Part shown: piece after piece, positions 16,037-30,511 of the stretch
Layout: every line of letters begins with the position of its first letter
Position numbering within the stretch: the stretch's first letter is position 1
Origin: Craspedostauros australis
Taxonomy: Eukaryota
Assembly: GCA_030167865.1 (NCBI GenBank)
Contig: JALAGF010005571.1
Location: 1 to 39,272, forward strand
Direction: 5' to 3'
DNA: 39,272 bases
The notes under the pieces: model-generated
Databases searched by the model: none
The model's input: the letters and a program-made list of their open reading frames with translations, nothing else
What the model was told of the DNA's origin: nothing
Translations under genes and position numbers: made by a program

Positions 16037-18037
16037 CGTTGTGGTTGACGTCCTTGCGTAGCTCGCACTGGTGATTGTGGGGGTACTCGTATCCTCAGGG
16101 TGGTAAGATGGTGTCAGCTGCCGTTGTTGCTTCCACGTTTCTTGTCAGATGGAGATGATCCTTTCGTGTCCCACCAACTGGTGTCTGTAATAGATCGCAC
16201 TATGTATTATTATATGTTATGTGTGTGTGCTTGGTTATGATTCGTTACCTTCGCTTGTTCAGCAAAGCATCAGCACAACACTGGTGCAGAATAGAATAAT
16301 AGAATAGCAGTGCTGTATTGTGCGACTGCTCCGCTCGACGATTATGTGACCGCCTCACAAGCCATTCTCGTTTGATTTCTCATCGTCTCTTTGTCTTTCT
16401 GCCTCCTCTTGCCAGCTTCGTGGCTGCTCTCTCTCTCATGTTGCTCAGGCGGTGAGCAAGAAACAAGGTCCCGCACGTTGGAAGGCAGAAGAGGGGAGAT
16501 TGCGGATCAGCAAGAACGACAGAGCACCGCGAATGACTGGAACGGGCGAAACATCCCCATGAAGATGGTCGCGATGTCTCTTTCTGCGCGCGTATTCTTG
16601 CTGCGGATGCCTGTTGATGTTTTTATTTTGGCCGAATGCAAAGAATTTATCTGTGTCGCGTTGATGTGTCCCACAAAGACCATTTTTGTGAAGATCATCG
16701 TGACGCAACTGTTCTTTCTTGGTTGCCGTTCGACGCACTCACATGGATGAAACTGTTCAAAAACAACGGCTCCAACGCCTTATGTTAATCGTGCTTTTTT
16801 CATCCAAGTCCCGTAAATGCGCTTCTATTCAGACATGAATGCAACATTTGGCTTAATTACCGAGCACCAAATTTGGCCAAGACACTGGTGACAAACAAGT
16901 TCACGATTTCACCTCACGCCAGAACAATTGGCCAAGAGAGGGTGCCACGCAGAGTTCCTGCATACGAATCGCTTTGACGGGAGCAGATGGCTTGTTCGGC
17001 GTCATGTTAGGCGACCTGATGATGGTCATTCCGCCCACTCTGTGATCAGCACCGAGTAGCTCGTATAGTACTCTGGAGAGGCGCTGCTGTCCCTGCCCTC
17101 TCTGGCCCCGAGAGTGTTGTCTAGTGAGCAGGTGCGCAGTTGGTGCCCAAGAGAGGAATGATGGATCTTGAACCACCTCATGCGCACATCGTTGGCCTCT
17201 GGTGTTGGAATCCCTCGAGTAGTCGTACGCAGAGCAGTGCTGTACAAACTACCTACTCTGCAGAAAGTACTCTCTCCTGTCTTCCACGATCACACGAACA
17301 TCAAGATCGTGTTGGGAATCATATAATACGAACAACATGGCAACAGACACCGATGCCGAGCGAGGGAGGCATCCATGCGTGGCCCCATAGCTATCCGCAC
17401 ACGTCACAACCTCTGCCGGTGTCTGTACCATACGACCCACTGTCCATGCTCCGCCACACACTACACTCGCGGTCATGGTCCGATCCTGAATCATTCGACT
17501 CTTCGATGTGGTCTGCGCCATTTCGCAGGCGTTCTGGTTGGTTCACTAATTTGGTCGTGGGTTTGGCGCCATAAATTTGAACGCAACGCACACGTGAGGA
17601 GCAACCATTCTCCTCTCGGTTCGGATTGGGTGGCCTCTGGTCTTCTCGTTGGGATGTGACTGCTGGGCGGACTTCGGGTCACATCTCCTATCTGCGACGG
17701 TTGAGGATGTTGTTTCGCTTTTGATTTCCGTTTGCTATTGTATGATCTATTGTGTATGGTATTCTACTACACATCTTCCAGTTGCATCGCGCTTGGTTGT
17801 GGGCAATGCGCTTTGTTGCGGCGTGGAGCCGTCATGGTAGCATCGCGCGACGTTGATTGCCGAAGACTCCTTCCCCATGGCTCGCACACATAACCCAGCG
17901 GACCCAAGCGCTACATTGCACCAGCAGAAGACAAAGAGGAAACGATACCGAACATCGGCCACAGAAACCGTTGCTGCATCCAACAAAAAAGCAAGAGCAG
18001 TAGAAGGCATAGAAGCAACAGAAGCAACAAGACAAAG

Positions 18038-24371: not shown

Positions 24372-25595
24372 ATGATGAATTTGAGTTCGAGTGCGAGTAC
24401 GAAGCATAATACAAAGATGACGGCGCAGACAAGGGCCAAGTCCAGCACAGCAAGGCGAGCAATGGTGCTCGCCCTCATGGCTTGCTGCTTGTGTTCATCT
24501 CCACCAACAACATCGGCATTTGTGTCTGCGGCGTCCCAATTCAGCGCAAGACAGATGAAAGCAACATCGGGAGCAACACTAGCAACAACATCAGGAGCAA
24601 CATCAGGAGCAACATCAGGAGCAACATCAGGAGCAACATCAGCAGCGACGACGACGATGATGGTGCAGGTGAATGAAGGGCCCAGGCGGAGATCCCACTC
24701 GACCACGCAACTTCATGACTCGTCGTCATCGTCGTCAACAACAACATCGTCGACCAGAAGCAAACTTGCCTTGCTCAAGATCTTTGCGGGTGGAATAAGC
24801 ATCACGGCTCTCTTCGCGAAGCTGGGTGTGCTGGGAACGCCATACACCAACCAGATGATCGGACAGGACATCCTGGCCGCCCTCTTTTGCGCCACCGGTG
24901 CCTACGTCGTCACGCAGCTGGTCTCTGTGGCACACAATCGACACGGTCTGTCCTCCATCATTGCGCGCAAATTGATCCACACTCTGACCGGTCCTCTCTT
25001 CACCATGAGCTGGGTTCTGTTCTCTACCAACGACGTTGGCGCCAGGGTCTTTGCCGGACTGGTCACCATGATCAATGCGTACAAACTGTACAAGCAAGCG
25101 ACGGACACCGACGACGGTGGCAACGACATATCGCTGGCCAAGGCCGTGAGCCGGTCCGGCGACGTCAAGGAAGCCCTGGGTGGGCCCTTCATCTACATCG
25201 GCGTCCTGCAGTTCCTCATCTGGGCCTTCTGGCGCGACAGCATGGCGGCCGTTGTTTCCATCTGCACCATGTGCGTCGGAGACGGATTGGCGGATCTCGT
25301 GGGCCGCAAGTACGGCAAGAACAACGCCTGGTTCTTTGCGTCCAAGGACAATCGCAAATCCATGGTCGGGACGTTGGCCTTCGCGGTGGGATCGTTCGTC
25401 GCGTCAGTGGGCATCATCCAGCTCTTCGCGGCGACGGGATGCGTCACGGCCGGCGTGGCGGTCACAGCGATTTGGGACAAGCTGCTGCTCATCTGCGTCG
25501 CATGTTCCATCGTGGAATTGATTCCCTTCGGCGATGACAATTACACAGTTCCAATCGCCGCGCTCATCCTTGGGAAATTGCTGCTGCCCTCTTGA
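24372..25595 (+). CDS. VTE5: Plastid phytol/farnesol kinase (VTE5 family); true start may be a later ATG (24417 or 24462)
   Basis: ARKLIHTLTGPLF, AVSRSGDVKEALGGPFIY, GDGLADLVGRKYG, KSMVGTLAF, VELIPFGDDNYTVP. Presequence with TSA-F motif. Confidence 0.88.
   Translation: MMNLSSSASTKHNTKMTAQTRAKSSTARRAMVLALMACCLCSSPPTTSAFVSAASQFSARQMKATSGATLATTSGATSGATSGATSGATSAATTTMMVQVNEGPRRRSHSTTQLHDSSSSSSTTTSSTRSKLALLKIFAGGISITALFAKLGVLGTPYTNQMIGQDILAALFCATGAYVVTQLVSVAHNRHGLSSIIARKLIHTLTGPLFTMSWVLFSTNDVGARVFAGLVTMINAYKLYKQATDTDDGGNDISLAKAVSRSGDVKEALGGPFIYIGVLQFLIWAFWRDSMAAVVSICTMCVGDGLADLVGRKYGKNNAWFFASKDNRKSMVGTLAFAVGSFVASVGIIQLFAATGCVTAGVAVTAIWDKLLLICVACSIVELIPFGDDNYTVPIAALILGKLLLPS
24561..24644 (+). repeat. 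12-bp coding tandem repeat GCAACATCAGGA (ATSG)n in the transit peptide
   Basis: Three perfect copies at 24597-24632 plus near-perfect copies at 24561, 24585 and 24633. Confidence 0.9.
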
Positions 25596-26058
25596 GCGAT
25601 GTTGAGGGGGCGCGTGCTTGGAGGACAGTGCAGCGCAGTGCAGTGCTCGTATGGTGCATTGTTGCAGAGGATGGCACACGAAACCATAGAGTACATAGTC
25701 GAGAACTTTGACATTCCTACTTCCTGTCTCTATATCTGCATCTCCAGAGTTCATTACGTGGTAGTACAAGCCTGAAGTCATGTTGGTGCACTGTATGGTA
25801 CGTCGTGCTCTGATGATTCGGACTCGAACGCACACAATGAACGCAGGAACTGTTTGAACACAACAAGTATCTTCCATCACAACGGTCACCCTCAGTCATT
25901 CAAACAAACAAGCAAACAAACTACGGCTGCTCCACCCGCACAATGACTGCGTTTCCTCTCCTTCGATACAAGAAAGTGCGTCGCGTGTTGCACGAGTATA
26001 CGTAACGATCGTGCTTATTAGAATAAAATACTCTTACTCTGTTCGTTTCTTATGCTGA

Positions 26059-26082
26059 GTTGTTGTTGTTGTTGTTGTTGTT
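26059..26082. repeat. (GTT)8 microsatellite immediately 3' of the SECIS (minus-strand sense)
   Basis: Read directly. Confidence 0.9.
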
Positions 26083-26085
26083 TGT

Positions 26086-26164
26086 CAATTCCAGAATGGT
26101 ATTTCTGTCGAAAGTTCAGCCTCCATCGTTAGATGGTTCGGCAAAACTCTGTCATTCTGCATTG
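26086..26164 (-). promoter_or_regulatory. Eukaryotic type II SECIS element in the 3' UTR of the 27643-26519 gene
   Basis: Minus strand: A-UGAC (26155-26151) / AGAGUUUUGCC / GAA / CCAUC-UAAC-GAUGG / A / GGCUGAACUUU / CGAC (26110-26107). This gives a tandem GA/GA quartet, an 11-bp helix II with one U-U mismatch, unpaired AA at the base of the apical region and a 5-bp mini-helix. Plausible helix I: CAAU-G-CAGA / UCUG-GA-AUUG. Confidence 0.85.
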
Positions 26165-26518
26165 CGACGATGATGATCGTGATGATGTCCTCTCATGTTG
26201 ATACATGGAGAGTACCATACCATGTCATACGTCGCATGCATTGAATACCAATTTCATGAACTTGACGGTGCGAGAGATGTCCCCATGCAAACCCTCCATT
26301 CGTGTCGCAATGGTCGAAAGTCAGAATGCAACAGATTCGTTTCTGTTGGTTCAGTTCTCATCGTGCGAGGATGGATTTGCATTTCATGGTGTTGCTGGAT
26401 GTGCTGTTTGTGTCGGTGCCGTTGCTGTGTTGCGTTTTGGCTTCAATCTTAAATACTGGAAGCGACGGCAGTAACATTACAATCCGCAACTACCATGTGG
26501 CATTGGGCATCTCTTTCT

Positions 26519-27643
26519 TTAACCTCAGGTGTTGAGCTGTGGGAGGTCAGAAATAGTCTTGGCCTGGCCCGGCCTCATCTTTCGCTTGCCGCGCTTTGGT
26601 GGTTTGCCAAAATTCTTGGCCTTCTCCTCCAGCGCAGTTCTCAGCGTTTGTGAGACTTCGGTCTTCTGCAATGCAATGTATCGCGTTGTGTTGTATTGTG
26701 TTGTATTGTATTGAGTTTGGTTGATTTTCGGGGTGTTGCCGTTTGTGAGGTGTGAAATGGGAGTGTTCGAGTGATTGGAACAATGCGATGCGTCAGATGA
26801 TTAGAATCCACATCGTATTCTTGTGTACGCAATGGTCTCGAGTTGATCCAGCATGCAATGCAAACGAGATGACACCTGATGCAACCCCAAGCAAGTGAAC
26901 CGATTGAGTTCTTTTGATCCACCCGAATTCTCAAGACACGCAGGCAAACATCCCACTCCAACGGTCAACTCATGGGCTATCCATTCATCCATTCGTTGCT
27001 TCTTCATCCGTTGCTTCATCCATCAATTGTATTTGGAATTCATTCGATAACGGCGACCAACCATGGTTCCATTGCTGAATAGGACACTCACTCTGCCGTA
27101 GTCCAAGTTGAACAAGGATTTGAAGTATCCCCGTGTCATCTTCATGACGGTGAAGGGGTTGAGGCAGGCACGGATGATGTAGGGGATGAACTTGAAGAGC
27201 GACTTGTTCTTTCTGCTCTTGGGTTGCGTGCTGAGCTCGGCATTGACCGCCGCCTTGGCTTCCTGCTTCACGGCCTGCTTGGCCTTTCTGGCGGACTTGA
27301 TGGTGGATCTAGCCAATTTGATGTCCACTTCATCTTCCTCCTCCTCTTCATCGTATTCGTCATCGATATCCTTCATGCTGGCGGCCACAGACGCGCCTCC
27401 TCTGGTGCTCAGTGCCGCAGATTCGGAAGACAGCTGCGACGTCAGCCTGGTAGTTGATGTAGATGACGTTGCGACAAATGCGGGAGATCCGCCTTGCTGT
27501 GTGAGCTGCGATGCCTTGAGGAATGCATCGCTGCGCTGCACGAGGGCCAGCAACAGAAGGCCAACGAACACCATCGTGCAGGAAGGGCCCTGGCGCAGCG
27601 ACATCCTTGGCGCGCTCGTAGGAGCACGGATGCTATTGCTCAT
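26519..27643 (-). CDS. Candidate selenoprotein (SelK/SelS-like C-terminus) with signal peptide; exons 27643-27092 and 26665-26519; UGA at 26527-26525 read as Sec (up to 232 aa)
   Basis: Exon 1 ends ...GYFKSLFNLDYGR|GTGAGT. Exon 2 after TTGCAG reads KTEVSQTLRTALEEKAKNFGKPPKRGKRKMRPGQAKTISDLPQLNT-TGA-GGT-TAA. SECIS about 370 nt downstream. Alternative starts at 27604 and 27574. Confidence 0.8.
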
Positions 27644-28351
27644 GGTGTATGGAGCCTGTTTCCTCGACTCAACTCAACTCGAATTCAATTGATTGATGAT
27701 CAGTGGCTGAGTTTGGGATCAGCAGCGGCGTCTTCAAAGAATTGTGTTGTGATGGGATGGGATGCGGTGTGGTGTGATGTTGGGCACGACACGTGCACAA
27801 CAGTCAACATCGTGGACATTCGTCCGTTCGTTTGTTGTCGATCGTGTTGTTTGTGGCTTGTTGTCCACGTTGTTGTTGGAGGCAATAGCGAGTCTGTCCT
27901 TCCACCGTTTGCGACGTGGAAGTCAACTCAAGAGGTTTTCGTTCGCGTTCTTTTCGTATCGAGCATTGATTTGGTCTGTACTTCAGTACGGTATCGGCGA
28001 GGTTCTTGAGCACGTTTCAAACGTTTATCATGATTAGATGGATGTGCTAAATCGCGATCATCATTTTTCTTCGATGCACGACACAGCCATTCATTCGAAT
28101 TCCGCAACCGCAGAAACAACACCAAGAAAAGCAACAACAACAGGATTGGCCACAGGCTGACATCAACTGCCTCCATCACAAGTGCCACAAAAGAGATTGG
28201 TGCAGCTGGCTCCACCACAAGTGCCACAAATCTCCAACACAACGCAACACAAAGCAGATATTATACCAGATACCAGACAACAGACAACAGACAACAGATA
28301 GAGAAAAGAGAGCAAACGATCTATTACATTGTATAGTATTATACGAACAGG

Positions 28352-30511
28352 ATGCCACGCAACAAGGGAACCTCCCGCAAGGGCAAGCCGAAGAAGCATG
28401 AGCGCGCCGCAGGAATGGGCCGAGCGCTGATCAGAGCGCAGCCCAATCGCCACCGATCCAAGGCGAGCACGGGAGGCATGGCCATGCGCAACGGCGTGGA
28501 CTCGATCAACGTGCAGGAGGAGGATCACCGGATCTCCGTGCTGGAGATGAACGATCTCGACGACTTCCTGGTGCAGGCCGAGATGGCCAACCGCGAGTTC
28601 TCGTCCGAGAAGGAGCAGATGGTCATCCTGGACGAGACCACGCAGGCGGTGCAAGACATGCGCGACGAGCGGCCCAACTCCATCTCCTGGTCGGACCAGC
28701 CCGCCAACGTCACGGCATCGCAGGATACCTTCGCCTTCCAGGAGCTCAGCGTTCCAAGGCGCCCGGCATGGGACGAGAACACCACGCCGGAGGACCTCGA
28801 CGTCAAGGAGAAGGAGTCCTTCCTGGAGTGGCGTCGCCAGATCGCCAAGAACGAGGAGAAGATCGCGGCCCGAAATCTCGGCGTCACGCCCTTCGAAAAG
28901 AACATTGAGATTTGGCGTCAGCTGTGGAGAGTCATGGAGCGGTGCTCCTGCATCGTGCAGATCGTCGACGCCCGCAACCCGCTCTTCTACTTGTCCAAGG
29001 ACCTCAAGAAGTACGCCACGCAAGAGCTCGGCAGGCCCATGCTCCTGCTCATCAACAAGAGCGACTTCCTGACGCCGGCGCAGCGGCAGGCGTGGCACGA
29101 GTATTTTTCGGATCCGGAGCATCCCTGGGATCACATCTTCTTCTCCGCGCACATCGAGCAGAAGAAGCTGGATGAGCACCCGTCGATGGATGTAGTGGAC
29201 GAGAATAACGCCGTCAACTCTGCGCTCATCGCCGATGCCTTGAAGGATGGTAGTCAAGCCGACGAAGCTGACGACGACGACGACGACGACGATGACGATG
29301 AGGAGGATGCAAGCGATAATGACACCAAAGATGAAGCAGATGCCACAGAAGATGCGAATGGTGAGAACGATGACGCCAACGACGCGACTGATGCACAGCA
29401 AACAACAAAGAAGAACGCGTTGGATGACCTCGGCATCGACGTCCCACTGACACGCGAGGCATTGCTGGAATGGTTGCACGCGTATGCGACGCAGCACAAC
29501 TGCGCCACAGACAAGCACCACGACAGGATTCCGTTTGGCATGGTGGGATTCCCCAACGTCGGAAAATCTTCCGTCATCAACGTCCTCATGGGCAACGCCA
29601 AGCACAGCCACAACGTCGTGCGCGTGGGAGTCGCCGCCCAACCAGGCAAGACCAAGCACTTTCAGACGCTGCTGCTGCCGTCGCGCGACGACATGCTCCT
29701 CTGCGATTGTCCGGGTTTGGTCTTCCCATCCTTCGTCAATCACACTGCAGACCTGCTGGCCGCAGGGGTCTACCCCATCTCGCAGATGAGAGACCCGTGG
29801 CCAGTTCTCAATCTGCTGTGCAAACGCATTCCGCGCGACGTCCTCAATGCGCAGTACGGCATCCAAATACCACAACCGGCACCCGATGCGTACTTGAATT
29901 ACACCGGCGAGCACGGCTCCGTCCCTCCTCCCACCGCCGAAGAATTCCTCTCCACCTACTGCATCGCGCGCGGAATGCTGGCCGCGTCCAGCGGTGTGCC
30001 GGACCACACGCGTGCCTCGCGCATCGTCATCAAGGACTACGCCACGGGCAAGCTTCTGTTCTGCCACCCTCCGCCGACGTGCGAGGACGCAAAGGCTTTC
30101 TACGACGAGACCTTGCAAAATGCGATGCAAAACACGAGAAGGTTGCGCGAAAAGTTGGCAATCGAACAGCAGCATCAGGCGGACGCCAAGGCATCCAAAG
30201 GAGGGCACGGTGCGGATGACGACGGCGATGTCGGCATCGACGACGAGGATGACATGCTGCTCGAACTGATGGGAGGCGCCGGCATATCGTTGGCATCCAC
30301 TCCCGTTCCCAAGAAGACACGCACCAAGAAATGGGGAAAGAAGGGTCGCAAACTCCGCAACAAGGATCCCTACGGTTGCCACACCAACCCAGACGAGGGT
30401 CTTGCCGACGATGCCTCACCCGTGGGTGTCCACGTCAAGACCGGCAAGAAGAATCGAAAGAAGGGTTACACAAGGCCAGTGGGCTATGGCGGTGTCCGTG
30501 CGATCAGTTAA
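28352..30511 (+). CDS. LSG1: Large subunit GTPase 1 (circularly permuted GTPase, 60S maturation)
   Basis: TPFEKNIEIWRQLWRV, QIVDARNPLFY, G4 NKSD, G5 FFSA, G1 GFPNVGKSS, G2 PGKTKHFQT, G3 DCPGLVFP. Confidence 0.96.
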   Translation: MPRNKGTSRKGKPKKHERAAGMGRALIRAQPNRHRSKASTGGMAMRNGVDSINVQEEDHRISVLEMNDLDDFLVQAEMANREFSSEKEQMVILDETTQAVQDMRDERPNSISWSDQPANVTASQDTFAFQELSVPRRPAWDENTTPEDLDVKEKESFLEWRRQIAKNEEKIAARNLGVTPFEKNIEIWRQLWRVMERCSCIVQIVDARNPLFYLSKDLKKYATQELGRPMLLLINKSDFLTPAQRQAWHEYFSDPEHPWDHIFFSAHIEQKKLDEHPSMDVVDENNAVNSALIADALKDGSQADEADDDDDDDDDDEEDASDNDTKDEADATEDANGENDDANDATDAQQTTKKNALDDLGIDVPLTREALLEWLHAYATQHNCATDKHHDRIPFGMVGFPNVGKSSVINVLMGNAKHSHNVVRVGVAAQPGKTKHFQTLLLPSRDDMLLCDCPGLVFPSFVNHTADLLAAGVYPISQMRDPWPVLNLLCKRIPRDVLNAQYGIQIPQPAPDAYLNYTGEHGSVPPPTAEEFLSTYCIARGMLAASSGVPDHTRASRIVIKDYATGKLLFCHPPPTCEDAKAFYDETLQNAMQNTRRLREKLAIEQQHQADAKASKGGHGADDDGDVGIDDEDDMLLELMGGAGISLASTPVPKKTRTKKWGKKGRKLRNKDPYGCHTNPDEGLADDASPVGVHVKTGKKNRKKGYTRPVGYGGVRAIS

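What the first reader, a model, noticed from the sequence alone, without database searches (positions are those of the whole stretch)
26086..27643. Hidden selenoprotein: penultimate UGA (Thr-Sec-Gly-stop) paired with a type II SECIS
Seen: after splicing a 426-nt GT-AG intron, the frame ends ...GQAKTISDLPQLNT-TGA-GGT-TAA. About 370 nt further 3' on the same strand is AUGAC-[11-bp helix]-GAA-[5-bp ministem]-[helix]-CGAC. Established: eukaryotic Sec insertion needs this 3' UTR structure, and SelK/SelS-type proteins carry Sec 2-3 residues from the C-terminus, after a hydrophobic segment and a Gly/Pro/basic region. Here those are YFKSLF and GKPPKRGKRKMRPG. Inference: UGA is recoded as Sec, so standard annotation would truncate this protein by two residues and call it hypothetical. 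The two signals were found independently, which makes coincidence unlikely. The ORF track shows neither exon 2 nor the recoding.
Basis: partly seen in the sequence, partly recalled or inferred. Interest (0 to 1): 0.92.

Follow-up and report, generated by a model that had tools for sequence, protein, structure and literature searches.

The report
Hidden SelK-like selenoprotein gene in diatom
This diatom gene really does encode a selenium-containing protein whose last-but-one amino acid is selenocysteine, and it belongs to a widespread diatom family that public databases cut short and label hypothetical.

Summary

- **Gene:** a two-exon minus-strand gene (ATG 27643; 426-nt GT..AG intron 27091-26666) ends ...DLPQLNT-TGA-GGT-TAA.
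- **Hairpin:** a type II SECIS-shaped hairpin lies 372 nt downstream (26169-26094).
- **Transcript:** a contig from a public run joins the two exons exactly and runs through the hairpin. An MMETSP transcript ORF equals the spliced product up to the TGA.
- **Conservation:** all 80 of 80 related metagenome loci keep TGA, then one Gly codon (all four synonymous codons occur), then TAA or TAG.
- **SECIS:** a covariance model built from 18 orthologous hairpins, without the window, gives one significant hit in the window, at the predicted site (40.3 bits). It also hits 70 of 80 loci, 73-358 nt after their TGA.
- **Cys forms:** two relatives carry Cys where the others have TGA.
- **Annotation:** named members are all from diatom records except one ciliate-transcriptome record. 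Descriptive labels are hypothetical, uncharacterized or transmembrane; none says selenoprotein.
- **Family:** Pfam gives no hit above threshold. SelK_SelG recurs below threshold (11 of 81 members, best 20.3 against 23.3 bits), and a language-model search also points to SelK.

I read it as a divergent SelK-like selenoprotein with a long N-terminal extension, possibly plastid-targeted. Its function is inferred, not shown.

The parts
27644..27730 (-). 5' untranslated part covered by the spliced contig
   Evidence: Contig record 1 of run X1 begins at 27730. The ATG at 27643 is the first Met of the MMETSP ORF P0176.
27092..27643 (-). Exon 1 coding sequence, 184 codons (MSNSIR...FNLDYGR)
   Evidence: Translation. 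Identical to residues 1-184 of P0176.
27524..27643 (-). Predicted N-terminal signal peptide, residues 1-40, ending ...QRSDA|F. The Phe after the putative cleavage site resembles the diatom plastid-import motif.
   Evidence: Kyte-Doolittle 19-residue mean 1.78 at residues 24-42. By a crude rule, 27 of 45 N-complete relatives have a small residue followed by an aromatic one just after the hydrophobic core. The cleavage site and the targeting are inferred; no predictor was available.
26666..27091 (-). Intron, 426 nt, GTGAGT...CAG, phase 0
   Evidence: Sequence. A contig of run X1 skips exactly 426 nt between 27092 and 26665, with CT..AC on the + strand.
26519..26665 (-). Exon 2 coding sequence: KTEV...DLPQLNT-Sec-Gly-stop
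   Evidence: Translation with TGA=U. Residues up to T equal P0176 and P0004.
26525..26527 (-). Sec codon UGA, in the penultimate position
   Evidence: TGA in 80 of 80 related loci. Cys at this position in P0084/P0178 and P0115.
26519..26524 (-). Gly codon GGT and the true stop TAA
   Evidence: Gly is kept in 80 of 80 loci with all four synonymous codons. The stop is TAA in 76 and TAG in 4, never TGA.
26522..27187 (-). Conserved C-terminal, SelK-like domain (residues 153-232, interrupted by the intron): moderately hydrophobic block, helix, Gly/basic linker, GQAKTISDLPQLNT-U-G
   Evidence: Alignments A4 and A5. PF10961 is sub-threshold in relatives. AF2 gives helices and a disordered tail.
26091..26518 (-). 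3' UTR as far as the spliced contig lies on the window
   Evidence: Contig record 1 runs to 26091 with no differences. Its last 29 letters fall in a repeat that the tool skipped.
26094..26169 (-). SECIS element, type II form (AUGA 26155-26152; GA 26109-26108; unpaired GAA 26139-26137; ministem 26136-26132 with 26127-26123)
   Evidence: Model R1, built without the window, scores 40.3 bits, E 2e-7. Fold; pairing; covariation across orthologues.

Best explanation
The locus is a real, expressed selenoprotein gene.

**How Sec is inserted.** The spliced mRNA carries UGA-GGU-UAA at the end of its reading frame and a type II SECIS 372 nt downstream in the 3' UTR. By the standard eukaryotic mechanism (established knowledge, not tested here), SBP2 binds the SECIS kink-turn core. 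It recruits eEFSec with Sec-tRNA[Ser]Sec, so the UGA is read as selenocysteine. Gly is then added and translation stops at UAA. The product is 232 residues ending ...DLPQLNT-Sec-Gly.

**Protein layout.**
- An N-terminal signal peptide.
- A Ser/Thr-rich stretch ending in a conserved RGG.
- A long acidic run, then a Lys/Ala-rich helix.
- A conserved C-terminal domain of about 80 residues. It has a moderately hydrophobic block, a short helix, a Gly/basic linker and the invariant GQAKT(L/I)SDLPxLxx-U-G tail.

**What the domain resembles.** The C-terminal domain is most like selenoprotein K: a hydrophobic segment followed by a disordered basic/Gly-rich tail with Sec next to the end and no conserved partner Cys. 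I think it works as SelK-type proteins are thought to (recalled). That is, it would be anchored or docked through the hydrophobic block, with the exposed selenolate reacting with a partner protein or with another copy.

**My odds.**
- Sec-encoding gene: about 0.95.
- True distant homology to SelK rather than convergence: about 0.55.
- Plastid rather than ER or other location: about 0.4.
For: **Shown**

1. Sequence anatomy.
2. Spliced transcript.
   - A contig of run X1 at depth 95 joins 27092 to 26665 and runs to 26091, through the SECIS.
   - The MMETSP transcript ORF P0176 (230 aa) equals exon 1 plus exon 2 up to the UGA.
3. Codon-level conservation.
   - 80 of 80 loci have TGA, a Gly codon and a stop.
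   - All four Gly codons are used.
   - The 74 loci plus the window tabulated give 64 distinct 57-nt C-terminal segments. Their wobble positions vary freely while TGA never changes.
4. SECIS.
   - RNAalifold on 18 orthologous hairpins gives 11 pairs, 10 of them with compensatory changes.
   - Model R1 from these hits the window only at 26169-26094 (40.3 bits).
   - It also hits 70 of 80 loci downstream on the coding strand.
   - On the 72 aligned matches (65 distinct rows), 86.9% of cells pair, against 18-58% when the partners are slid. 0 of 500 shuffles reach the covariation score.
5. Family search.
   - An exhaustive HMMER search with the C-terminal domain profile found 278 cluster representatives at E<=1e-3.
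   - Of the 145 I tabulated, 123 contain the DLP motif.
   - 115 of those end exactly where the UGA lies.
   - 4 end in ...WG, meaning TGA was called as Trp.
   - 2 are Cys forms (...NTCGG, ...NTCSG).
6. SelK link.
   - PF10961 SelK_SelG matches 3 of 35 domain sequences at E<=10 (best E 0.0096).
   - It matches 11 of 81 full-length members. The best is P0081: E 8.7e-4, 20.3 bits, residues 140-211 on profile positions 9-71 of 86.
   - In the member tally of the 81-member scan (first 25 of 199 families shown), most of the other families are, by my reading, ones hit through the acidic tract.
   - The Atlas feature search with the Cys form's domain gave SelK_SelG clusters as its top three named hits, scoring 0.80, 0.78 and 0.77.
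7. Structure and Cys.
   - The AF2 model is helical with an unstructured tail.
   - The only Cys column besides the Sec position that is at all common is occupied in 18 of 35 members.
Against: - Rfam's own SECIS models do not match the window. There were 0 matches at gathering score over the whole window. None of the 4 matches at E<=10 in 25950-26560 is a SECIS. The same models also found none of the SECIS elements in 20 orthologous loci, so this says more about the models than about the hairpin.
- SelK membership is not established.
  - No member reaches Pfam's gathering score (best 20.3 against 23.3 bits).
  - 70 of 81 members, including the window's own product P0176, give no PF10961 match at E<=10.
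  - The Gly-rich and basic composition could inflate these scores.
  - Atlas scores below 0.9 are, by the tool's own statement, leads only. A third of shuffled proteins get a first hit of 0.8.
- The conserved hydrophobic block scores 1.1-1.4 on a 19-residue Kyte-Doolittle window and contains conserved Arg/Lys, Asn-Pro and Thr-Lys. It may not span a membrane.
- Ten of 80 loci have no model hit.
  - Five have divergent ATGAC...[T/C]GA hairpins by eye.
  - Four have only 60-223 nt after the TGA.
  - One is a chimeric contig.
- Two tabulated relatives end oddly: P0142 runs on 13 residues past the usual end, and P0116 ends ...DLPKLG. I did not explain them.
- Selenium incorporation, the Sec machinery of this organism, localisation and function were not tested. 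No genome is held for the window.
Confidence: 0.9

Rival explanations
1. It is a real selenoprotein but an independent, diatom-specific family. The resemblance to SelK (a hydrophobic segment plus a basic/Gly-rich tail with near-terminal Sec) would then be convergent or compositional, not homologous.
For: - No Pfam family reaches its threshold in any of the scans.
- 70 of 81 members, including the window's protein, give no PF10961 match.
- The full-length Atlas search gave no usable hit, and the PDB profile search gave nothing relevant.
- The architecture differs from the SelK I recall: 190-370 residues, a cleavable-looking signal peptide, an acidic tract, and a distinct invariant motif GQAKTLSDLPxLxxUG.
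Against: The best hmmscan match covers profile positions 9-71 of 86, not just a low-complexity patch.
Confidence: 0.35
2. It is a divergent selenoprotein S (SELENOS/VIMP) relative rather than SelK-like. This rests on the shared ...U-G-stop ending and a Lys/Ala-rich helical region.
For: Sec is penultimate and followed by Gly, as in SelS (Sec188 of 189; PMC3628699, abstract seen in the search listing). AF2 predicts a long helix at P0004 residues 20-53, before the hydrophobic block.
Against: - No match to the SelS Pfam family appeared in any scan I could read in full. It is also not among the 25 families shown of 199.
- The Cys about 14 residues upstream, which pairs with Sec in SelS, has no counterpart. 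No Cys column in the tail is conserved.
- All Atlas hits point to SelK_SelG.
Confidence: 0.03
3. The UGA is an ordinary stop codon, the protein ends at ...LNT, and the downstream hairpin is a chance or unrelated 3' UTR structure.
For: - Gene callers and public annotation end the protein there.
- Rfam SECIS models do not match.
- A second stop two codons after a stop is not rare by chance.
Against: - TGA is kept in 80 of 80 loci while synonymous sites around it vary.
- The next codon is always Gly, through four different codons.
- The second stop is never TGA.
- Cys homologues exist at the position.
- A covarying hairpin with an invariant ATGAC...GA core sits downstream in 70 of 80 loci.
Confidence: 0.02
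4. The UGA is read through without selenium, for example by near-cognate Trp or Cys insertion, and the hairpin is a read-through stimulator rather than a SECIS.
For: The comparative data alone show that the UGA and the following Gly are translated, not which residue is inserted.
Against: - The hairpin has the SECIS-specific features: an AUGA/GA core, a helix of about 11 positions, unpaired GAA and a ministem.
- It lies 73-372 nt downstream, not immediately after the stop (window distance).
- The only natural replacement seen is Cys, the usual Sec counterpart.
- Diatoms are documented Sec users (PMC2375036, passages read).
Confidence: 0.02

Closest known systems
Selenoprotein K (SELENOK; Pfam PF10961 SelK_SelG)
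   Same: - Sec lies within 2-3 residues of the C-terminus, at the end of a basic/Gly-rich region that AF2 leaves unstructured.
- That region is preceded by a hydrophobic segment.
- There is no conserved intramolecular Cys partner (18 of 35 at best).
- PF10961 is the only recurring Pfam match that does not, by my reading, come from the acidic tract (11 of 81 members, best 20.3 bits).
- It is the top named family in the Atlas search.
   Different: - No member reaches the Pfam gathering score, and the window's protein gives no match.
- The family is 190-370 residues long, not about 94 (SelK size recalled).
- It has an N-terminal signal peptide, a Ser/Thr-rich stretch, a conserved RGG, an acidic run and a Lys-rich helix in front of the SelK-like part.
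- The tail motif is GQAKTLSDLPxLxx-U-G rather than ...GG-U-GR (recalled).
- The hydrophobic block is weak for a membrane span.
Selenoprotein S (SELENOS/VIMP; Pfam PF06936)
   Same: It ends ...U-G-stop, with Sec penultimate (SelS Sec188 of 189; PMC3628699 abstract). A helical Lys/Ala-rich region lies upstream of a flexible tail.
   Different: There is no sequence match in any scan and no counterpart of SelS Cys174. Here the hydrophobic segment sits next to the tail, not at the N-terminus of the mature protein.
Thioredoxin reductase C-terminal redox centre (-Gly-Cys-Sec-Gly; recalled)
   Same: Penultimate Sec followed by Gly on a mobile C-terminal arm.
   Different: There is no adjacent Cys and no flavoprotein domain. 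The protein is small and mostly non-globular.
Published diatom and algal selenoproteomes (Lobanov et al. 2007, PMC2375036; Jiang et al. 2020, PMC7539508)
   Same: The organism group and the recoding system are the same. Diatoms are reported with 16 (T. pseudonana, 2007) and 20-44 (2020) selenoprotein genes.
   Different: - The 2007 T. pseudonana list has no SelK, SelS or MSP entry (passages read).
- The 2020 text names 42 families, three of them new, and none is described as this one (passages and section 5 read).
- So I cannot exclude that the gene is in that database under SELENOK, SELENOS or 'Hypo'.

Membership tests
Eukaryotic selenoprotein gene (UGA-Sec with 3' UTR SECIS) | The in-frame UGA is conserved among orthologues and never replaced by another stop codon | tested here: met
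   TGA in 80 of 80 related loci and in the window.
Eukaryotic selenoprotein gene (UGA-Sec with 3' UTR SECIS) | Sequence after the UGA is under protein-level constraint up to a true stop | tested here: met
   One Gly codon in 80 of 80 loci (GGT 65, GGC 8, GGA 4, GGG 3), then TAA in 76 or TAG in 4.
Eukaryotic selenoprotein gene (UGA-Sec with 3' UTR SECIS) | A SECIS lies in the 3' UTR of the same transcript and is conserved in orthologues | tested here: met
   - Model built without the window: 40.3 bits at 26169-26094.
- 70 of 80 loci are hit 73-358 nt downstream.
- 11 of 11 pairs covary.
- The contig covers the element.
Eukaryotic selenoprotein gene (UGA-Sec with 3' UTR SECIS) | Homologues exist with Cys at the Sec position | tested here: met
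   P0084/P0178 end ...NTCGG and P0115 ends ...NTCSG: 2 of the 123 tabulated hits that contain the DLP motif. Their DNA could not be fetched.
Eukaryotic selenoprotein gene (UGA-Sec with 3' UTR SECIS) | The organism has the Sec machinery (tRNA-Sec, SBP2, eEFSec, PSTK, SecS, SPS2) | not testable with these tools
   No genome is held for the window, and there is no tRNA in the window. Sec tRNA and selenoproteins are documented for the diatom T. pseudonana (PMC2375036, passages).
Eukaryotic selenoprotein gene (UGA-Sec with 3' UTR SECIS) | Selenium is actually incorporated | not testable with these tools
   Needs 75Se labelling or mass spectrometry.
Type II SECIS element | AUGA...GA core, a helix of about 9-12 pairs, unpaired AA, and an extra ministem below the apical loop (criteria recalled) | tested here: met
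   AUGA-C, 11 positions (10 paired), GAA, a 5-bp ministem with a 4-nt loop, then C-GA.
Type II SECIS element | Match to the Rfam SECIS covariance models | tested here: not met
   No SECIS match at gathering score or at E<=10. The same models also found none in 20 orthologous loci, so the test has no power here.
SELENOK (PF10961 SelK_SelG) | Pfam HMM score at or above the gathering score (23.3 bits) | tested here: not met
   - Best 20.3 bits (P0081), then 18.8 (P0079) and 17.0 (L065 domain).
- 11 of 81 full-length members and 3 of 35 domain sequences match at E<=10.
- The window's product P0176 has no match.
SELENOK (PF10961 SelK_SelG) | Sec 2-3 residues from the C-terminus in a disordered basic/Gly-rich tail | tested here: met
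   Sec is penultimate. The tail carries no regular secondary structure apart from one 3-residue helix, and pLDDT is 59-69 over residues 101-145 of P0004.
SELENOK (PF10961 SelK_SelG) | A small protein of about 90-100 aa with one N-terminal membrane helix (recalled) | tested here: not met
   The product is 232 aa with an extension of about 150 aa. The hydrophobic block scores 1.1-1.4 on a 19-residue Kyte-Doolittle window.
SELENOS (PF06936) | Pfam HMM match | tested here: not met
   Not listed, nor among the 25 families shown of 199.
SELENOS (PF06936) | A Cys about 14 residues upstream that forms a selenenylsulfide with the penultimate Sec (PMC3628699 abstract) | tested here: not met
   There is no Cys column in the tail. 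The only frequent Cys column is in the hydrophobic block, in 18 of 35 members.
Diatom bipartite plastid presequence (ASAFAP-type; criteria recalled) | A signal peptide whose cleavage site is followed by Phe, Trp, Tyr or Leu, then a transit-peptide-like stretch | tested here: inconclusive
   - The window has ...QRSDA|FLKAS.
- My crude rule found a small residue followed by an aromatic one after the core in 27 of 45 N-complete members.
- The stretch up to the conserved RGG has 0-3 acidic and 2-12 Ser/Thr residues.
- No SignalP, ASAFind or HECTAR was available, and some subgroups lack the motif.

The most novel reading that the evidence does not exclude
This may be the founding example of a diatom-wide selenoprotein family that almost always uses Sec and has gone unrecognised. 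It would be a SelK-like Sec tail fused behind a bipartite plastid-type presequence and an acidic/basic extension. That would make it a SelK-type selenoprotein working inside, or at the envelope of, the complex plastid rather than at the ER. I recall no plastid selenoprotein of the SelK/SelS type.
Probability: 0.3. Interest if true: 0.75.

Novelty: new variant of a known kind. Interest (0 to 1): 0.6.

Why it matters
Diatoms are major marine primary producers, and they are documented selenoprotein users (PMC2375036, PMC7539508).

- **An uncounted family.** It has at least 278 sequence clusters at 50% identity. Every record that carries a descriptive label calls it hypothetical, uncharacterized or 'transmembrane protein' and cuts it two residues short, so the catalytic residue is missing from the databases.
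- **Strong dependence on selenium.** Sec is replaced by Cys in only 2 of 123 tabulated members. Adding the family to diatom selenoproteomes bears on how selenium limitation acts on these algae.
- **A possible missing SelK.** The early T. pseudonana survey lists no SelK or SelS (PMC2375036). This family may be the diatom counterpart in a new architecture.
- **A practical lesson.** Penultimate-Sec genes escape both gene callers and the Rfam SECIS models. They were recovered here from stop-codon conservation plus a lineage-specific SECIS model.

Tried and rejected
- **Rfam.** No SECIS match in the window or in 20 orthologous loci. I treat this as lack of sensitivity, not as evidence against the element.
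- **Whole-genome search.** No genome is held for this window, so the Sec machinery and paralogues could not be sought. There is no tRNA gene in the window.
- **Pfam on the window's exon products and on 9 full-length relatives.** Only low-complexity noise from the acidic tract.
- **Atlas with a full-length member.** No usable hit.
- **PDB profile search.** One irrelevant match at E 0.56.
- **AF2 model.** pLDDT 67.6 and pTM 0.27. I judged this too weak for a fold search, so none was run.
- **Earlier findings of this scan.** Nothing for this genome or this sequence. One unrelated archaeal note came up.
- **Sequencing runs.** No RNA holder is listed. The one holder, X1, is labelled RNA only as a guess.
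- **3' end of the transcript.** It could not be placed. The contig's last 29 letters fall in a repeat (26050-26090) that the tool skipped, and nothing lies beyond 26091.
- **Supplementary tables of PMC7539508.** Closed. They may list this gene under some family name.
- **Literature searches.** Searches for the tail motif strings and for diatom SelK or new selenoprotein families found nothing describing this family. Only the open-access library was searched.
- **The two other weak R1 matches in the window** (34896-34866 minus strand; 16519-16551 plus strand). On reading them they share only the GC(G/U)AAUGAC motif and have no hairpin.
- **DNA of the Cys homologues.** It could not be fetched.
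Full report
**1. Observation**

On the minus strand an ORF starts at ATG 27643 and runs 184 codons to 27092. It is followed by GTGAGT...CAG, exactly 426 nt (27091-26666). Joining in phase 0 continues the frame as KTEVSQTLRTALEEKAKNFGKPPKRGKRKMRPGQAKTISDLPQLNT. Then come TGA (26527-26525), GGT and TAA.

The hairpin starts 372 nt after the T of TGA:
- AUGA (26155-26152), C, and an 11-nt arm.
- GAA, then a 5-bp ministem with a 4-nt loop.
- The return arm, C, and GA (26109-26108).
- 10 of the 11 helix positions pair.

The MFE fold of 26185-26080 shows the same helix and ministem. It is -27.4 kcal/mol against -19.0 +/- 3.1 for shuffles, z = -2.69, and 2 of 200 shuffles fold as well. The description is accurate.

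**2. Is the gene model real?**

A protein search with exon 1 returned 27 relatives at E<=0.01 among 341 candidates.
- One, P0004, is identical to the spliced product across the exon junction (DYGR|KTEV).
- Its cluster mate P0176 is a 230-residue ORF from an MMETSP transcript. It equals exon 1 plus exon 2 up to the residue before the TGA.

One public run, X1, holds 73% of the sampled words of 25900-27750. Laid on the window, it gives these results:
- A 1243-nt contig at depth 95 covers 27730-27092.
- It skips exactly 426 nt (CT..AC on the + strand, so GT..AG on the gene's strand).
- It continues 26665-26091 without a single difference.
- A second, low-depth contig (11.4) lies inside the intron (26840-27080).

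The run is labelled RNA only as a guess. However, a molecule with the intron removed exists, and it contains the whole hairpin.

**3. Is the UGA a Sec codon?**

All 11 full-length relatives first aligned end in the same column, after a highly conserved block. I scanned JGI metagenome contigs with that alignment.
- 172 stretches matched the patterns.
- 102 encoded relatives.
- The best 80 were kept.

In 74 of the 80 my first motif pattern located the tail. The other 6 have GQSKT or GRSKS variants and were found with a wider pattern.

The result covers all 80 of 80 loci:
- The first stop is TGA.
- It is followed by exactly one Gly codon (GGT 65, GGC 8, GGA 4, GGG 3).
- Then comes TAA (76) or TAG (4), never a second TGA.

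The 74 loci plus the window give 64 distinct 57-nt C-terminal segments. Their third-codon positions vary freely, yet TGA is invariant. An ordinary stop codon would drift among TAA, TAG and TGA, and the codon behind it would not be held to Gly through four synonymous codons.

An exhaustive HMMER search of 1.84 billion cluster representatives used a profile of the C-terminal domain, with TGA read as U (alignment A4, 35 loci). It found 278 proteins at E<=1e-3, 129 at <=1e-10 and 45 at <=1e-30.

I tabulated 145 of the 150 listed; the other five were already in hand. Of these, 123 contain the DLP motif:
- 115 end exactly seven residues from the D, which is at the UGA.
- 4 end ...WG, a caller having read TGA as Trp and then Gly.
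- 2 are Cys forms: P0084, with its cluster mate P0178, ends ...DLPQLNTCGG, and P0115 ends ...DLPRLNTCSG.
- 2 are unexplained: P0142 runs on, and P0116 ends ...DLPKLG.

A Sec/Cys pair at one position is the classical signature of a selenoprotein family.

**4. Is the hairpin a SECIS?**

Rfam says nothing.
- There were no matches at gathering score in the window.
- No SECIS appears among the 4 matches at E<=10 in 25950-26560.
- The same search on 20 orthologous loci also found no SECIS, so these models are blind to this set.

I therefore built my own test.
- A strict pattern-and-pairing scan found ATGAC-helix-AA-ministem-helix-(U/C)GA hairpins downstream of the TGA in about 30 of the loci scanned.
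- I aligned 18 non-redundant ones, leaving the window out.
- RNAalifold gave 11 pairs, 10 of them with compensatory changes.
- These 18 had been selected for pairing, so that count is partly built in.

The covariance model R1 made from them is the independent test.
- Over both strands of the window it gives one significant match, 26169-26094 on the minus strand, at 40.3 bits and E 2e-7.
- The next two matches (11.8 and 10.4 bits) are partial and have no hairpin on inspection.
- Over the 80 loci it gives 72 matches at E<=1. That puts a hit on the coding strand downstream of the TGA in 70 loci: 69 at E<=0.002, and L041 at 0.045, or 0.0074 with the filters off.
- The core lies 73-358 nt after the TGA, median 234. 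In the window it is 372 nt.

The ten loci without a hit are accounted for as follows:
- L065, L066, L067, L068 and L079 have divergent ATGAC...(U/C)GA hairpins by eye.
- L033, L056, L069 and L078 hold only 175, 223, 82 and 60 nt after the TGA.
- L049 turns into unrelated sequence about 105 nt after the TGA.

Pair counts on the aligned matches (65 distinct rows) are as follows:
- 86.9% of cells form standard pairs, against 18-58% with the partners slid by 1-3 columns.
- All 11 pairs have double changes.
- 0 of 500 shuffles reach the covariation score.

One caveat applies: that alignment was fitted to the model.

**5. What is the protein?**

Layout, from 46 aligned members:
- A hydrophobic N-terminal segment. 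The 19-residue Kyte-Doolittle mean is 1.8-2.6.
- Often a small residue then Phe. The window has QRSDA|F, and a crude rule finds this in 27 of 45 N-complete members.
- A stretch of 15-43 residues rich in Ser/Thr and poor in acidic residues, ending at a nearly invariant RGG.
- An acidic run, then a Lys/Ala-rich helix.
- The conserved block (I/V)PYI(I/V)(R/K)AxLNPxTxxxMTxxYxxSLxNxxY, with a Kyte-Doolittle mean of 1.1-1.4.
- SQxLRSALEEKAK, a Gly/Ser linker, basic residues, and GQAKT(L/I)SDLPxLxx-U-G.

AF2 on this alignment gives helices, a tail without regular structure apart from one 3-residue helix, and no compact fold (pLDDT 67.6, pTM 0.27). No Cys is conserved apart from the Sec position; the RAC Cys is present in 18 of 35.

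Family searches:
- Pfam gives nothing above threshold.
- When the C-terminal domain is scanned alone, PF10961 SelK_SelG appears in 3 of 35 members. The best is the L065 domain: E 0.0096, 17.0 bits, residues 14-72 on profile positions 28-75 of 86.
- Among 81 full-length members it appears in 11. The best is P0081 (E 8.7e-4, 20.3 bits, residues 140-211 on profile positions 9-71), followed by P0079 at 18.8 bits. The gathering score is 23.3 bits.
- Most other recurring families in that tally are, by my reading, ones hit through the acidic tract.
- These E-values are for a library of 24,736 models. SelK was one of two families named in advance, which makes the coincidence harder to dismiss.
- Independently, the Atlas feature search with the domain of the Cys form (P0178, residues 172-260) gave SelK_SelG clusters as its three best named hits (0.80, 0.78, 0.77). 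All ten best family-bearing hits agreed.
- The tool warns that scores under 0.9 are leads only, and that shuffled proteins often do as well.
- SelS never appears, and the window's own product gives no PF10961 match.

I conclude that the domain works like SelK and is probably (about 0.55) a distant relative. Membership is not shown.

**6. Distribution and annotation**

Sources that name their sequences give these organisms:
- Thalassiosira species, Conticribra weissflogii and Skeletonema marinoi and S. dohrnii.
- Chaetoceros, Seminavis robusta and Mayamaea pseudoterrestris.
- One ciliate transcriptome record (Tiarina).

The descriptive labels are 'hypothetical protein', 'expressed unknown protein', 'Uncharacterized protein' and 'Transmembrane protein'. 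None says selenoprotein.

**7. Literature**

- Lobanov et al. 2007 (PMC2375036, passages read) list 16 selenoproteins for T. pseudonana. None is SelK, SelS or MSP. A 2020 review repeats that list (PMC7238072, passages read).
- Jiang et al. 2020 (PMC7539508, passages and section 5 read) report 20-44 selenoprotein genes per diatom genome and 42 algal families. SELENOK and SELENOS are among the least widespread. [quoted passage not shown]
- Which families the diatoms carry is shown only in figures and a supplement that I could not open.
- Full-text searches for the tail motifs and for diatom SelK or new selenoprotein families found no description of this family.

I therefore rate the family as probably undescribed as such. 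I cannot rule out that it sits in that database under another label.

**8. Mechanism and verdict**

Shown:
- A spliced mRNA with UGA-GGU-UAA and a SECIS.
- Translation past the UGA, inferred from codon-level conservation.
- Cys replacement at the position.
- A conserved, covarying SECIS.

Inferred from the established eukaryotic pathway:
- SBP2 and eEFSec-dependent insertion of Sec.

Inferred from the anatomy:
- A non-globular protein that presents a C-terminal selenolate on a flexible basic tail, next to a hydrophobic docking or anchoring block, acting on a partner or dimerising as I recall for SelK.
- Entry into the secretory route through a signal peptide. The conserved Phe after the likely cleavage site, followed by a transit-peptide-like stretch, suggests onward import into the complex plastid (about 0.4).

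It is a real hidden selenoprotein, representing a diatom-wide family with a SelK-like Sec tail in a new architecture.

Noticed in passing
window 26050-26090 (minus strand): A (CAA)n-type run (acaacaacaacaacaacaacaac) lies directly 3' of the SECIS. The read-laying tool skipped it as a repeat, and the last 29 letters of the spliced contig fall there. The transcript's 3' end could therefore not be placed.
   Followed up: partly
window 26840-27080: A separate low-depth contig (11.4, against 95 for the spliced one) of run X1 lies wholly inside the 426-nt intron. It could be unspliced precursor or DNA carry-over.
   Followed up: no
P0005, P0006, P0010-P0012, P0014, P0015, P0026-P0028 and P0156-P0175: Many relatives predicted from genomic contigs leave the family alignment a few residues after the ...N(L/I)xY motif and read on as ...EV(R/S)... 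This is what reading into a GT intron would give. The intron position seen in the window therefore looks conserved across diatoms. A second subgroup (P0107, P0111, P0117, P0125) diverges after ...PGQAKV, which suggests another intron just before the tail.
   Followed up: no
L049:570 onward: This contig matches its relative L065 for about 105 nt after the TGA. It then turns into an unrelated GC-rich coding-like sequence, so it is probably a chimeric assembly.
   Followed up: partly
window 28346-30508 (+): The divergent upstream neighbour is a 721-residue GTPase (MMR_HSR1, E 6e-13). From recall it resembles the LSG1-type ribosome-export GTPases.
   Followed up: partly
window 24372-25592 (+): The convergent downstream neighbour is a multi-pass membrane protein of about 407 residues with a repeated TSGA motif near its N-terminus. 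It has no Pfam match at E<=0.001. Its stop lies about 500 nt from the last base covered by the selenoprotein transcript.
   Followed up: partly
L-loci, 4-8 nt in front of the SECIS core: A conserved GCGA or GC(U/A)A precedes AUGAC in most orthologous SECIS elements. The same short word caused the two spurious partial model hits in the window (34896-34866 and 16519-16551).
   Followed up: yes
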